Both the position numbers and the translations under genes were made by a program. Positions 1-6,984 of a DNA stretch of 6,984 nt are shown here, in pieces. Source of the DNA: a virus (lineage: Duplodnaviria > Heunggongvirae > Uroviricota > Caudoviricetes); the IMG/VR virus record IMGVR_UViG_2663763286_000013, positions 1 to 6,984 of that record; one strand, 5' to 3'. Below the pieces are notes generated by a model. That model was not told where the DNA came from. It searched no databases and worked only from the letters and a program-made list of their open reading frames with translations. Position 1 is the first letter of the stretch. Each line of letters opens with the position of its first letter.

Positions 1-63
1 AAGAACCGTTCTGACAGCTTCGGCTTTGAACTCTTTAGAGTAACGTTGGGTTTTTCTGCTCAT
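1..63 (-). CDS. IS3-family transposase OrfA, N-terminal fragment (gene continues beyond window start)
   Basis: Reverse complement of 1-63 translates MSRKTQRYSKEFKAEAVRTVL, a typical IS3-family OrfA helix-turn-helix N-terminus. ATG is the complement of 61-63. An AAGGAG Shine-Dalgarno (complement of 70-75) lies 6 nt upstream. Not in the ORF track because it runs off the window. Confidence 0.8.
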   Translation of the reverse strand, partial: MSRKTQRYSKEFKAEAVRTVL

Positions 64-127
64 TATTAGCTCCTTCTGATGCCATTCTATTTCAGGAAGG
101 AGTGTCCGTTAAACTCAGGCTACCTCA
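1..127 (-). mobile_element. Left-hand IS3-family insertion sequence, terminal part (IR and orfA leader); outer end near 127
   Basis: Read on the minus strand from 127, the sequence starts TGAGGTAGCCTGAGTTTAACGGACAC, i.e. the 5'-TG terminus typical of IS3-family ends, about 64 nt upstream of the orfA ATG. The exact boundary is inferred, not proven. Confidence 0.55.
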
Positions 128-2039: not shown

Positions 2040-2612
2040 CTATTTATACAATACAACACCGCTCTTTTTAGTAATATATGTGCAGTTCGATGGTATATCT
2101 TTATTTATAAAAGACATTGCACCTATTTTTACATTATCCCCAATTTTACGTGATAATCCAATGATGCAACAATTAGCTCCGATATCAACGTTGCTACCAA
2201 TTTTTACTCTTGAACCAGGTATGTCACCATCTATCTGTCCAATGGTCGTATTCTGTCGTAACACCAGATTTTCACCAGCATCAACAGCAAAATGAACAAC
2301 AATTCCAGCATGATGGGGAATTGTTAACCCTTTTCCAATATTTGCGCCCAATCCAATTTCACAACCAAATTTGTTAATTATTTTACTGTTTAACTTTTTG
2401 GCTGCTTTCTTATGTAATTTATTACCATTAATATGCATTTCATTAGCCAATCTCCACCAGAAAAGGAAATTCCGATTGCGCTGCCTCTTCTCTCTTAATA
2501 GTCGCCAAACATCCATTTTTTCACGCCTGATGACTTCAGCCATCCAATAGCTCAATAGAGCTTTTGAATTCCCAAAGATGACAAAGTGAATAGCTATTAA
2601 GTAACATAACAT
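2040..2612 (-). CDS. Hexapeptide-repeat (left-handed beta-helix) O-acetyltransferase, serine acetyltransferase (CysE)/WcaB-like; start codon uncertain
   Basis: 190-aa ORF containing …GCEIGLGANIGKGLTIPHHAGIVVHFAVDAGENLVLRQNTTIGQ… followed by further [LIV]-G-x-x-x-x hexapeptide repeats. AT-rich codon usage unlike the flanking phage genes. Both candidate starts (2612 and the internal ATG at 2543) have weak SD sequences. Confidence 0.7.
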   Translation of the reverse strand: MLCYLIAIHFVIFGNSKALLSYWMAEVIRREKMDVWRLLREKRQRNRNFLFWWRLANEMHINGNKLHKKAAKKLNSKIINKFGCEIGLGANIGKGLTIPHHAGIVVHFAVDAGENLVLRQNTTIGQIDGDIPGSRVKIGSNVDIGANCCIIGLSRKIGDNVKIGAMSFINKDIPSNCTYITKKSGVVLYK

Positions 2613-3100
2613 ATTGCAACTGCCTATATTTTTGGTTTCTATGGTTATATATCGACATTATAATTAAAACAATAAGCATCAGTGTGTTACTGCGTTCCTG
2701 CTAAACTAAACCAACGCACAATGTAAACACAAATATTAATTTTAAACTGAGCACTAAAGGGATGTCAATATTGTATTGATAATAAGTTGCAAGATTGCCA
2801 CTACTTTCTGTATTTTGGGATGCAATAATTTATATTTTATCTATTCAGTGTTTCTTTGGGCTTATTAAGGATGTCATTATTAATTTATGGCTTGCCATTT
2901 CTATACATATCTGTTAAAAATTTTGATTTGTCTATTGAAAATAGATTTAATTGATTGATTTAATTTTTACATGACGCTCTTTAATATAACTTCAGGTATA
3001 TTAAAGCACATGCATTATATCCAGAGAAAATTAACAAAATTGTTAGCCCTTATTTGTTGGGATTATAGATATTAATTAAGGCCCGATCCCGGGCCTTTCC
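2613..3100. other. AT-rich non-coding spacer; presumably holds the acetyltransferase promoter
   Basis: No ORF of 60 aa or more on either strand. Very AT-rich with short direct repeats (e.g. gatttaatt twice around 2945-2970). Function not determinable from sequence alone. Confidence 0.3.
3078..3097. terminator. GC-rich hairpin just downstream of the minus-strand tfa-relic stop codon; possible terminator remnant
   Basis: aaggcccg (3078-3085) / cgggcctt (3090-3097) form an 8-bp stem with a 4-nt loop. No clean U-tract on either strand, so confidence is low. Confidence 0.3.
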
Positions 3101-4725: not shown

Positions 4726-6645
4726 ATGGAACAGTTCAATATCAATAAAGGGGTGACGATCAAGCCTGGGCTTGACGTGCTTCCCCCGCCAGTGACTGAT
4801 GATGAATATCGCGCATTAATGGCCGGTGAGGACCGCTATCTGATGACGGAATCCAACACCCTGGAGGAAATCGAGGCTACGTTCTTCTATGACACGCCGA
4901 TCCACTGGTGTGCTACGGATTTACTGGAGGCGATTAGTTCTACTCGTTTGCAGTTACACCGGACCATGCAGGCATTTGTCCGGGCATTGAACCAGAAGCT
5001 GAATGGTACCGGAATCTCTGCGGGGAGTGATAAAACGGGGGATGTGGCCCAGAGCGGCGCGCGCGCGATCGGCGGAGCTGAAATTGGTCGGGCACGTAAC
5101 GTTAACGGGCTGTCGGTCCTGCCAGCCATTATTCCGCTCAGTGATGGTCAGACTATCAGCATTTTGTTTCATAGCCCGACAGCGGAAAACCGGATCACCA
5201 ATAGCGATACGCTGGTTGCTTTCCAGTTCTTACTGAATAAAAAAGACGTTACTCACACCGTTGCTCCGATGAGTGGACGTGATATGACGCTGGCGCAGGT
5301 CACCATGAAACTTGCCAACCTTGCAGAGAAAAACTCGGCAAAATTTCAGCGTGCGCAGAAGAAGAAAAAAGCCCTTGTTGATGAAATAACCCAACTACAG
5401 GCTGACAGTGACCAGAAAGAGGATGCCATGAGCGACCTCGTGGATCAGGTGGCAGCGGTAGAAGGGCAGAAGGTAGATCTGGAGCAGAAAATTAACGCTG
5501 TTGCATCGGAAGCGGATTCTCTTTATGAAGAGAATGAGCGTTTGCAGACGGAGATTGATCAGCTCAATCGAACTGGTGGGCGCGAAACCATTGCTCCTGC
5601 GGGGATGACTGGTGGACACTCTCGCGCGATGACGGATCGCCTTGCAAGTATCAAAAATCGTATGCATATGAACGGGGAAGTGACGCTCAGTAATGGTGCA
5701 TCAATGAAGCAATTCATTGAGGACGGTGAAGGGTATATCCAGTTAACCGATTCGGATGGCAGCGTGTACATGATCAAGGCTAAATCCATACAGGGTGTGG
5801 ACATGGCAGATGCGATCGGCAAGCTGTTTAAAGCCTATAAAGCGGGTAATGTATCGGAATACCTAGTCCAACCAGAAGAACATAAACCGGAAAACGTCGA
5901 ACCTGAACCAGCGGAGGATACCGGTAGCTCTTCGCCTGAACCAGAAGTCTCTGTAGGTGCATATCGATATGCCCTGCAAATGCGTCCGGCGGCCCCTGGC
6001 GCAATACCTGAAGGTAACAAAGCAATTCTGCCGCGCCCTGATGAAGGTGACCCGTATTATGAATATGCACGCTACGGCATTGCTACTTACGATACCCCGC
6101 TTTCTGATCAGCAAATGAGTGAGTACGACCTGAAGTTATTGCCTCGCGAGGATTCTTTCGACTTCCTGGCGAAGACACTTACTAATGGTCCGTTTGGCAA
6201 ATATGCACAAAAAGCTCTGGAGCTGGCCACCAGCTCACCAGACGAGTTCCGCGTAATGCTGAAAACTCAGTTTCAAAAAACTTTCCCCAATATTGCGTAT
6301 CCGGGGGGCGCTGGCACCGAGAAAATGGTGCAGAGCATGATCAATGCATTGCAGGCCGAAGTCGGTGAGATTACTCAGCCAGAACCTGCCCCGGCACAGC
6401 CTGATGAAACGGTTAGCGAAGCAGATGCAGAGGCTAATAAAGCCATTGAATATCTCAATAACGTGATGGATATGCAAAGCACTGACATGGCGGAGATCCG
6501 TAACGCCCGGGGTAATGTCCGGGAAGCGATTGCAGCCCTTCAGGCTGCCGGGCGTTTTGAGGAAAACGAAGAGCTGGTTAATGGCGCTGCTCGCCACCTG
6601 GCTGATCTGCTGGTAGCAATCCAGAAAGCGGGGGTAGCGGCATGA
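4726..6645 (+). CDS. darA: Large DarA-like protein (639 aa): candidate capsid-packaged antirestriction protein
   Basis: ATG at 4726 with AGGA 7 nt upstream, immediately after the upstream stop. Has a central coiled coil (…ALVDEITQLQADSDQKEDAMSDLVDQVAAVEGQKVDLEQKINAVASEADSLYEENERLQTEIDQL…) and acidic Pro/Glu-rich linkers. Its N-proximal region is paralogous to the preceding gene. Assignment to DarA is an inference from operon architecture and size. Confidence 0.55.
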   Translation: MEQFNINKGVTIKPGLDVLPPPVTDDEYRALMAGEDRYLMTESNTLEEIEATFFYDTPIHWCATDLLEAISSTRLQLHRTMQAFVRALNQKLNGTGISAGSDKTGDVAQSGARAIGGAEIGRARNVNGLSVLPAIIPLSDGQTISILFHSPTAENRITNSDTLVAFQFLLNKKDVTHTVAPMSGRDMTLAQVTMKLANLAEKNSAKFQRAQKKKKALVDEITQLQADSDQKEDAMSDLVDQVAAVEGQKVDLEQKINAVASEADSLYEENERLQTEIDQLNRTGGRETIAPAGMTGGHSRAMTDRLASIKNRMHMNGEVTLSNGASMKQFIEDGEGYIQLTDSDGSVYMIKAKSIQGVDMADAIGKLFKAYKAGNVSEYLVQPEEHKPENVEPEPAEDTGSSSPEPEVSVGAYRYALQMRPAAPGAIPEGNKAILPRPDEGDPYYEYARYGIATYDTPLSDQQMSEYDLKLLPREDSFDFLAKTLTNGPFGKYAQKALELATSSPDEFRVMLKTQFQKTFPNIAYPGGAGTEKMVQSMINALQAEVGEITQPEPAPAQPDETVSEADAEANKAIEYLNNVMDMQSTDMAEIRNARGNVREAIAALQAAGRFEENEELVNGAARHLADLLVAIQKAGVAA

Positions 6646-6782
6646 CACTATCAGCTATTGAGTTAATGGATCTCAGCGATAAGTTGGATGCTCTGATGTC
6701 CAAAGCGGCTACCGCGAGTGGCATGGAGTTGCTGGATATCAGCGATGAAATTGACCAGATCATGCAACAGATGGGGTACTGA
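6642..6782 (+). CDS. Small ORF (46 aa) coupled to the DarA-like gene; possibly a 3'-truncated ddrA-like gene whose stop codon is supplied by the IS end
   Basis: ATG at 6642 overlaps the upstream TGA (ATGA). Encodes MTLSAIELMDLSDKLDALMSKAATASGMELLDISDEIDQIMQQMGY, with an internal 14-aa duplication. Its stop TGA (6780-6782) is the first three bases of the IS inverted repeat TGAACCGCC. Below the ORF-track length cutoff. Confidence 0.5.
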   Translation: MTLSAIELMDLSDKLDALMSKAATASGMELLDISDEIDQIMQQMGY

Positions 6783-6867
6783 ACCGCCCCGGGTTTCCTG
6801 GAGAGTATTTTATCTGTGAACTCTGAACCGCCCCGGGTTTCCTGGAGAGTATTTTATCTGTGAACTC
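6780..6867. repeat. Perfect 44-bp tandem duplication of the IS terminal inverted repeat
   Basis: 6780-6823 and 6824-6867 are both tgaaccgccccgggtttcctggagagtattttatctgtgaactc. The repeat starts with the IS3-group terminal motif TGAACCGCCCCGGG. Confidence 0.9.
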
Positions 6868-6984
6868 AGGCTGCCAGATCATTATTTCCGATGGAAGCAT
6901 AATAAGCTTTTTCTGCTTCTGCCGGAGGAATATGGCCCAGCCTTTCCAGCAATCGTCGATTGTTATACCAGTCCACCCACGTTA
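6824..6984 (-). mobile_element. Right-hand IS3-family insertion sequence (IS629/IS3411-like end), right inverted repeat plus orfB 3' end; continues beyond the window
   Basis: Terminal sequence TGAACCGCCCCGGGTTTCCTGGAGAG is an IS3-group-type inverted repeat, immediately followed by the stop of a minus-strand transposase orfB. Confidence 0.75.
6866..6984 (-). CDS. IS3-family transposase OrfB, C-terminal fragment (gene start beyond window end)
   Basis: Reverse complement of 6866-6984 translates …TWVDWYNNRRLLERLGHIPPAEAEKAYYASIGNNDLAA then stop (complement of tca at 6866-6868). This is the conserved C-terminal tail of IS3-family integrase-type transposases. Confidence 0.8.
   Translation of the reverse strand, partial: TWVDWYNNRRLLERLGHIPPAEAEKAYYASIGNNDLAA

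What the first reader, a model, noticed from the sequence alone, without database searches (positions are those of the whole stretch)
6780..6867. Perfect 44-bp tandem duplication of an IS3-family terminal inverted repeat
Two identical, directly abutted copies of the IS end sit at 6780-6823 and 6824-6867; only the second is contiguous with the transposase orfB. A duplicated end is not part of a canonical IS. It could be a solo IR left by an earlier insertion or deletion, the result of IR-targeted insertion (IS3-family elements are known to target sequences resembling their own ends), or an assembly artefact. The extra IR could act as an alternative transposase substrate.
Basis: seen in the sequence. 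Interest (0 to 1): 0.55.

Follow-up and report, generated by a model that had tools for sequence, protein, structure and literature searches.

The report
Extra IS629 end beside an IS629
A common E. coli jumping gene (IS629) sitting in a P1-like phage-plasmid has its last 44 bases written twice in this draft contig; this is most likely a small scar from one IS629 copy landing just inside another, or less likely an assembly error, and it is ordinary either way.

Summary
In detail: 6780-6823 and 6824-6867 are identical, abutting 44-bp copies. The element is IS629 (1,310 bp, IS3 family), inserted in the ddrA anti-restriction gene of a P1-like phage-plasmid. The true terminal inverted repeat is only about 25 bp. 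The unit is that repeat plus 19 subterminal bases, and its inner edge falls inside the orfB stop codon.

The window is a whole draft contig (JXWD01000094.1, GCA_000948825.1), and the doublet lies 117 nt from its end. Two independent assemblies of the same insertion (one differs by 2 mismatches in 6.8 kb) have one copy. No doublet junction was found in 5,426 finished E. coli genomes or in three large public collections.

Ten other IS629 right ends in the same assembly are all single, so a systematic untrimmed-overlap artefact is ruled out. The contig ends fit a k=127 graph assembler, which produces a doublet only if reads contain it.

A sister contig shows an IS629 tip against a 28-nt IS600 end remnant, which is the same layout. 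The best explanation is a strain-specific scar of an IS629-into-IS629 insertion at nt 44|45. About a quarter of the probability stays with a one-off assembly error. IS911-style end-targeted insertion does not fit the geometry. Interest is low.

The parts
6642..6782 (+). 5' part of the P1-type ddrA gene, cut after codon 46. The ORF borrows its stop codon (TGA, 6780-6782) from the IS tip.
   Evidence: The intact 121-codon gene in NZ_CP023381 reads ...cagatggggtac|ggtgtgtcc. It is annotated DdrA or DdrA-like anti-restriction protein in P1-like phages. ORF list.
6780..6823 (-). Outer 44-bp copy: a solo IS629 right-end fragment (IS nt 1-44 counted from the right tip) that abuts the ddrA flank. The ~25-bp inverted repeat proper is 6780-6804.
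   Evidence: Exact match to the inner copy. P1 homology ends at 6779. This copy is absent from sister contigs L003 and L004.
6824..6867 (-). Inner 44-bp copy: the genuine right end (IRR plus subterminal bases) of the IS629 copy, contiguous with orfB. The inverted repeat proper is 6824-6848.
   Evidence: 6824-6984 is 161/161 identical to complete 1,310-bp IS629 copies, including the one annotated in phage BP-4795.
6866..6984 (-). 3' end of IS629 orfB (last 38 codons plus the stop codon at 6866-6868), cut off by the contig end.
   Evidence: Gene call. Translation TWVDWYNNRRLLERLGHIPPAEAEKAYYASIGNNDLAA*. The identical fragment sits at 10 other contig ends of the same assembly.
1..127 (-). Context: the left end of an IS600 copy forms the other contig end. 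It runs exactly 127 nt into the IS, which suggests a k=127 graph assembler.
   Evidence: IS600 hits cover 1-127 and P1-like hits start at 127.

Best explanation
The doublet is a real but trivial strain-specific scar. The ancestral P1-like plasmid carried one IS629 in ddrA with a normal single right end, and sister plasmids still show this state. In the JXWD strain, which has at least 11 IS629 right ends, a second IS629 circle integrated in the same orientation into the resident copy between nt 44 and 45 from its right tip, duplicating CTC (GAG in IS orientation). That leaves ddrA flank, resident nt 1-44, then the tip of the incoming IS629. Either the nested pair is still present beyond the contig end, or recombination between the two directly repeated copies collapsed it to one IS629 plus a 44-bp solo end. 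Shown: the structure, its absence from sister plasmids and elsewhere, its non-systematic nature, and the parallel IS629|IS600-remnant junction. Inferred: the insertion event, its 3-bp duplication, and any later recombination. The outer fragment keeps the TG tip and the whole IR, so it could serve as an alternative right end, but nothing indicates it has been used.
For: The structure is exact and starts at the insertion junction. Sister contigs with the same ddrA|IS629 junction have one copy. L003 differs by only 2 mismatches in 6,820 bp and has the same IS600 at the other end, so the single copy is the ancestral state. The artefact is not systematic: 10 of 10 other IS629 right ends in GCA_000948825.1 are single, and all stop at IS nt 161. 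The left contig end runs exactly 127 nt into IS600. For any k of 45 or more, all window k-mers starting at or before 6823 are unique, and sharing with the other contig ends begins at 6824. The tail of 44+127+34 = 205 nt is what a k=127 graph gives when reads contain the doublet. In L004, an IS629 right tip abuts a 28-nt IS600 end remnant, which in turn abuts the P1 flank. This is the same architecture in the same plasmid lineage, and it cannot be explained as a tandem duplication. IS629 makes 3-bp target duplications and has no strict target sequence (PMC3271280).
Against: No reads were available, so the doublet rests on one draft contig, 117 nt from its end, inside a multicopy repeat. The second junction of a nested insertion (IRL tip + CTC + IS nt 45 onward) was not seen and could not be searched for. 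The identity of the assembler is inferred from the 127-nt end only. No other example of this doublet exists in 5,426 finished E. coli genomes, 185,579 species-representative genomes, JGI metagenomes or IMG/VR, so if real it is a one-off.
Confidence: 0.55

Rival explanations
1. One-off assembly or finishing error. The DNA has a single IS629 end, as in the sister plasmids, and 44 bases were written twice when a flank piece ending in IS nt 1-44 was joined to a piece starting at the IS tip without trimming the overlap.
For: The window is a complete short-read draft contig, and the doublet lies 117 nt from its end, in a repeat present at least 11 times in that genome. The unit starts exactly at the unique-to-repeat boundary. 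Its length of 44 would equal k-1 for k=45. Sister assemblies L003 and L004 have one copy. No doublet was found anywhere else.
Against: Ten of ten other IS629 right ends in the same assembly are single with identical sequence, so the join step does not normally do this. The other contig end points to k=127, not 45. A k-mer graph cannot create the copy1|copy2 junction without reads that contain it, and the 205-nt tail is what a real doublet predicts.
Confidence: 0.25
2. A real tandem duplication made at the IS end during transposition-linked DNA synthesis. Copy-out replication primed from the flank 3'-OH at the IS tip stalled after 44 nt, and the nascent end re-annealed at the tip through 1-nt microhomology (C at 6779 and 6823). 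This could involve the IS-excision enhancer PrimPol found in EHEC strains, or ordinary slippage.
For: The duplication starts exactly at the tip, where copy-out synthesis begins. A 1-nt microhomology is present. IEE is described as a PrimPol with primer-realignment and microhomology end-joining activities that acts on IS629 (bioRxiv 10.1101/2023.06.07.543989 and PMC9943667).
Against: One nucleotide of microhomology is expected by chance a quarter of the time. No such product is described in the papers read. Presence of iee in this strain was not tested. The parallel IS629|IS600-remnant junction in L004 cannot arise this way, and an insertion explains both structures.
Confidence: 0.08
3. IS911-style end-targeted insertion. 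An incoming IS629 was directed by transposase to a pre-existing solo IS629 end.
For: Targeted insertion next to IS ends is documented for the IS3-family member IS911 (cited in PMC7986276 and PMC2909936). Two IS629 events in this plasmid lineage lie within 28-44 nt of an IS3-family end, and both remnants begin GAGT next to the IS629 tip.
Against: The documented geometry is transfer to the flank outside the target tip. Here the incoming tip lies on the inner side, 44 nt from the target tip, with no spacer. A pre-existing solo 44-bp end is not seen in the sister plasmids, which carry a full IS629 at this junction as far as their contigs reach.
Confidence: 0.05

Closest known systems
IS629 (IS1203/IS3411 isoforms), IS3 family, as found in EHEC genomes and phage BP-4795
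   Same: 161/161 nt identity from the right tip inward. The TG tip, the orfB C-terminus and the ~25-bp imperfect IR all match. Reference copies are 1,310 bp with 3-bp target duplications.
   Different: Canonical copies have one right end. This one is preceded by a second identical 44-bp end fragment.
Nested IS-in-IS insertions and the solo-end remnants they leave, for example the IS629 tip | 28-nt IS600 end | P1 flank junction in sister contig L004
   Same: An IS629 right tip abuts the inner side of a short terminal fragment of an IS3-family element, and that fragment keeps its original junction with the phage flank.
   Different: Here the remnant comes from the same element in the same orientation, so it reads as a perfect tandem repeat. 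The far junction is not visible.
IS911 targeted insertion next to an IS end, and IS3-family circle or (IS)2 junctions
   Same: Two IS3-family ends lie close together, and transposase recognition of a resident end is plausible.
   Different: Those junctions are tip-to-tip (IRR-3/4 bp-IRL, or transfer to the flank outside the tip). The window has IRR followed by IRR in direct order, tip against inner side, with no spacer. Both copies carry TTT at unit nt 14-16 where the left end (IRL) has AAA.
Untrimmed k-1 overlap joins in de Bruijn assemblies
   Same: A perfect tandem copy that begins exactly at a unique/repeat boundary near a contig end.
   Different: Such artefacts should recur at equivalent boundaries. 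Here 0 of 10 do, and the inferred k is 127, not 45.

Membership tests
IS629 (IS3 family) | Near-identity to the reference element sequence | tested here: met
   Window 6824-6984 is 161/161 identical to the 1,310-bp copies in NZ_CP032792 and in phage BP-4795, where it is annotated IS629 OrfA/OrfB.
IS629 (IS3 family) | Terminal 5'-TG...CA-3' and imperfect terminal inverted repeats | tested here: met
   Both copies start with TGAACC. In the complete reference copy the two ends match at 22 of the first 25 positions. The left end of this particular copy lies outside the contig.
IS629 (IS3 family) | orfA/orfB with programmed -1 frameshift; about 1.3 kb long | not testable with these tools
   Only the last 38 codons of orfB are in the window. 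Reference copies are 1,310 bp and annotated with a programmed frameshift.
IS629 (IS3 family) | 3-4 bp target-site duplication at this insertion | not testable with these tools
   The other junction is not in the window. The empty site and TAC/ACC duplications at reference copies predict a TAC duplication.
IS911-type end-targeted insertion product | Incoming IS end joined to the flank just outside the tip of the resident end (tip-to-tip, a few bp apart) | tested here: not met
   The tip of copy 2 (6824) abuts nt 44 on the inner side of copy 1, with no spacer. The geometry of the known reaction is taken from PMC7986276 and PMC2909936.
IS circle / tandem-dimer (IS)2 junction | Right end abutting a left end (IRR-3/4 bp-IRL) | tested here: not met
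   Both copies are right ends (TTT at unit nt 14-16, where the left end has AAA) and they lie in direct order.
Systematic untrimmed-overlap assembly artefact | The same duplication recurs at equivalent repeat boundaries in the same assembly | tested here: not met
   L012-L021, ten other IS629 right-end contig termini of GCA_000948825.1, each have one copy. There is no other tandem repeat in the window.
Nested IS-into-IS insertion scar | The remnant keeps the resident element's original junction, and relatives show the single-copy ancestral state | tested here: met
   Copy 1 starts at the ddrA junction shared with L003, L004 and L007. L003 and L004 have one copy.
Nested IS-into-IS insertion scar | Second junction (left tip + 3-bp duplication + resident nt 45 onward), or evidence that it was lost by recombination | not testable with these tools
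   The contig ends 161 nt into the inner copy, and other small contigs of the assembly could not be retrieved.
Nested IS-into-IS insertion scar | Read-level support for the copy1|copy2 junction | not testable with these tools
   No read access. The only indirect support comes from contig-end arithmetic.

The most novel reading that the evidence does not exclude
The doublet is a physical footprint of the replication step of copy-out-paste-in transposition. Synthesis primed from the flank at the IS629 tip aborted after 44 nt and was re-primed at the tip by a microhomology-seeking polymerase such as IEE. This would leave a tip-anchored tandem duplication, a kind of transposition scar that has not been described.
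Probability: 0.06. Interest if true: 0.5.

Novelty: new member of a known kind. Interest (0 to 1): 0.12.

Why it matters
It matters little. If real, it is one more example of IS629 activity reshaping EHEC-type mobile DNA. It would show that IS629 can land just inside the ends of resident IS3-family elements, leaving a spare and probably usable right end next to an intact copy. In practical terms it is a caution for IS-typing and annotation pipelines: a perfect repeat at a contig end in a draft assembly needs read-level confirmation. The biologically relevant event is the disruption of the ddrA anti-restriction gene of a P1-like plasmid, and that is shared with sister plasmids and does not depend on the doublet.

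Tried and rejected
1. BLAST of 6780-6900 against finished E. coli genomes seemed to give 671 full-coverage records. These were single IS ends hit twice and joined by the tool, since the record spans were about 80 nt. The result was discarded.

2. A junction-centred 53-mer gave only partial hits at 88-95% identity. Three of the best were fetched, and their upstream 44 nt match the unit at 14-17 positions, which is chance.

3. Exact scans for the junction CTGTGAACTCTGAACCGCCCCGGG found nothing in IMG/VR, species-representative genomes or JGI metagenomes.

4. I first favoured a k=45 untrimmed-overlap artefact, because 44 = k-1 and the unit starts at the repeat boundary. I rejected it as a systematic process after finding 10 of 10 single ends in the same assembly and a 127-nt IS600 end.

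5. A look-up of the 46-aa minus-strand ORF that spans the doublet (6760-6900) found no record.

6. A search for a paper citing JXWD00000000, to learn the assembler, found nothing. The primary IS911 targeting papers (PMC126149, PMC2546779) are not held, so the geometry was taken from reviews that cite them.

7. The promoter scan found nothing. The only terminator-like match is a weak 5-bp stem inside each IR copy.

8. Contigs L005, L006 and L008-L011 end 1-2 nt after the site with empty-site sequence. They appear only because the look-up is by exact 46-aa product, so this is ascertainment and not evidence of a hotspot.

Full report
**Observation.** The window contains one tandem repeat: 6779-6867, period 44, two copies, 100% identical, no indels. 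The 44-mer TGAACCGCCCCGGGTTTCCTGGAGAGTATTTTATCTGTGAACTC sits at 6780-6823 and 6824-6867 and nowhere else, even with three mismatches allowed. No shuffle of the window produces a match. The register is ambiguous by one base, because C occurs at 6779, 6823 and 6867.

**What the parts are.** The flank is a P1-like phage-plasmid. The window encodes tail-fibre and tail-fibre-assembly proteins, holin/LydB, a DarA_N protein and DarA (4726-6645). Identity to intact P1-like plasmids runs up to 6779 and stops there. In the uninterrupted plasmid NZ_CP023381 the site reads ...cagatggggtac|ggtgtgtcc, inside a 121-codon gene. That gene is annotated DdrA or DdrA-like anti-restriction protein in P1-like phages. 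The window ORF 6642-6782 is therefore ddrA cut after codon 46, and it takes its stop codon from the IS tip.

The inserted element is IS629. Window 6824-6984 is 161/161 identical to complete 1,310-bp copies, including the one annotated IS629 OrfA/OrfB in phage BP-4795. Those copies have 3-bp target duplications, TAC and ACC. In a complete copy the two ends match at 22 of the first 25 positions and diverge after that. The 44-bp unit is thus the ~25-bp inverted repeat plus 19 subterminal bases. The orfB stop codon is TCA at 6866-6868 (minus-strand TGA), so the inner edge of the unit falls inside the stop codon.

**Provenance.** An exact look-up of the 46-aa truncated DdrA shows that the window is an entire contig, JXWD01000094.1 (6,984 bp), of the draft assembly GCA_000948825.1. 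The doublet is therefore 117 nt from a contig end, inside a multicopy repeat. The other contig end runs exactly 127 nt into an IS600 copy.

**Is the doublet seen elsewhere?** The same ddrA|IS629 junction was assembled independently in GCA_045758245.1 (L003) and GCA_005384205.1 (L004). Both have one 44-bp copy followed directly by orfB. L003 differs from the window by 2 mismatches in 6,820 bp and has the same IS600 at its other end, so it is the same plasmid lineage. A Logan k=31 contig (L007) stops 28 nt into the IS and is uninformative.

The copy1|copy2 junction has no full-length match in 5,426 finished E. coli genomes. The best partial hits are chance extensions, with 14-17 of 44 upstream bases matching. 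The exact junction 24-mer is absent from IMG/VR, from 185,579 species-representative genomes and from JGI metagenomes. No plasmid or phage record spans the junction.

**Artefact or real?** My first idea was an untrimmed k-1 overlap join, since 44 = 45-1 and the unit starts exactly where unique sequence meets the repeat. That predicts the same duplication at other repeat boundaries of the assembly. A look-up of the 38-aa OrfB fragment cut by the contig end returned ten more contig termini of the same assembly, each with a different chromosomal or plasmid flank. All ten stop at the same IS position (nt 161 from the tip) and all ten have a single 44-bp end. A systematic artefact is therefore refuted, and the doublet is not a property of the strain's IS629 copies in general.

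The 127-nt IS600 end points to a k=127 graph assembler. For any k of 45 or more, every window k-mer starting at or before 6823 is unique relative to the other ten ends, and sharing starts exactly at 6824. The tail of 44 + 127 + 34 = 205 nt is what such an assembler outputs when reads really contain flank, copy 1, copy 2 and IS interior. A k-mer graph cannot invent the copy1|copy2 junction. This is indirect evidence. The assembler is inferred and no reads were seen, so I keep about 25% on a one-off joining or finishing error.

**Mechanism.** The geometry is informative: the tip of copy 2 abuts the inner side (nt 44) of copy 1, in direct order, with no spacer. This differs from the tip-to-tip IRR-3/4 bp-IRL arrangement of IS3-family circles and tandem dimers (PMC2909936). 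[quoted passage not shown] In addition, both copies carry the right-end signature, TTT at unit nt 14-16 where the left end has AAA.

The simplest route is integration of a second IS629, in the same orientation, into the resident copy between nt 44 and 45, duplicating CTC. This gives flank, resident nt 1-44, then the incoming tip, which is what is seen. The nested pair may persist beyond the contig end, or recombination between the two direct copies may have collapsed it to one IS629 plus a 44-bp solo end.

Direct support for this kind of event comes from sister contig L004. There an IS629 right tip abuts a 28-nt terminal remnant of IS600, and that remnant still abuts the P1 flank. This is the same architecture, it cannot be a tandem duplication, and it occurs in the same plasmid lineage. 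In both cases the remnant begins GAGT next to the IS629 tip. This may be coincidence, because the ten other flanks in the strain start with CAC, CAG, AGT, TAC or ATC. IS629 has no strict target sequence and duplicates 3-4 bp (PMC3271280).

A less likely real route is a stalled and re-primed copy-out synthesis at the tip, using the 1-nt microhomology. It might involve the IEE PrimPol described for IS629 excision. It explains the tip anchoring but not the L004 parallel, and nothing like it is reported in the papers I could read.

**Consequences.** The outer fragment keeps the TG tip and the full inverted repeat. For IS911, a 36-bp end fragment is enough for transposase binding (PMC2909936). By inference the outer fragment could therefore act as an alternative right end, giving a 1,354-bp element. 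The absence of the doublet everywhere else indicates that this has not spread. The disruption of ddrA is shared with the sister plasmids and does not depend on the doublet. No promoter-like site was found around the doublet. The only terminator-like match is a weak 5-bp stem within each IR copy.

**Verdict.** The most likely explanation is an ordinary, strain-specific IS629-in-IS629 insertion scar (about 55%). A one-off assembly error is the main rival (about 25%). This is a new instance of a well-known kind of structure and is of low interest. Read mapping or a single PCR would settle the question.

Noticed in passing
window 1-127: The contig begins inside an IS600 copy. The left end and the orfA start (MSRKTQRYSKEFKAEAVRTV...) lie on the minus strand, and the IS600 tip at 127 abuts P1 tail-fibre DNA. 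The 6.65-kb P1 segment is thus bracketed by two different IS3-family elements.
   Followed up: partly
L004 304-375 (GCA_005384205.1, BFKX01000046.1): A second IS629 has its right tip 28 nt inside the IS600 left end, leaving a 28-nt solo IS600 end against the P1 flank. Both this remnant and the window's 44-nt remnant begin GAGT next to the IS629 tip.
   Followed up: partly
window 2437-3012 vs L004 2685-2759: About 576 bp in the window are replaced by about 75 bp in L004, in the tail-fibre / tail-fibre-assembly region. The window also lacks the Resolvase (Cin-like) gene that other P1-like contigs (L005, L006, L008) carry just upstream of the holin genes. This suggests a rearranged or frozen invertible segment.
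   Followed up: no
L012-L021 (ten contig ends of GCA_000948825.1) and window 6984: Every IS629 right-end contig terminus in this assembly stops at IS nt 161, which implies a graph branch at nt 162 in that genome (a variant or interrupted IS629 copy). The L004 copy differs from a reference copy at nt 166 and 268.
   Followed up: no
L005, L006, L008-L011: Metagenome and Logan contigs of P1-like elements end 1-2 nt after the ddrA insertion site with empty-site sequence. They were retrieved only because their cut ddrA product is the same 46 aa, so this is probably ascertainment and not a true break hotspot.
   Followed up: partly
window 6789-6801 and 6833-6845: There is a terminator-like 5-bp stem (CCGGG/CCTGG) followed by a T-rich run inside each IR copy. 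This is a consensus match only.
   Followed up: no
L015 (JXWD01000056.1): Another contig of the same assembly carries P1-type replication and partition genes (Rep3_N, ParA/ParB-like) and also ends in an IS629 right end. The P1-like plasmid of this strain therefore appears to carry several IS629 insertions.
   Followed up: no
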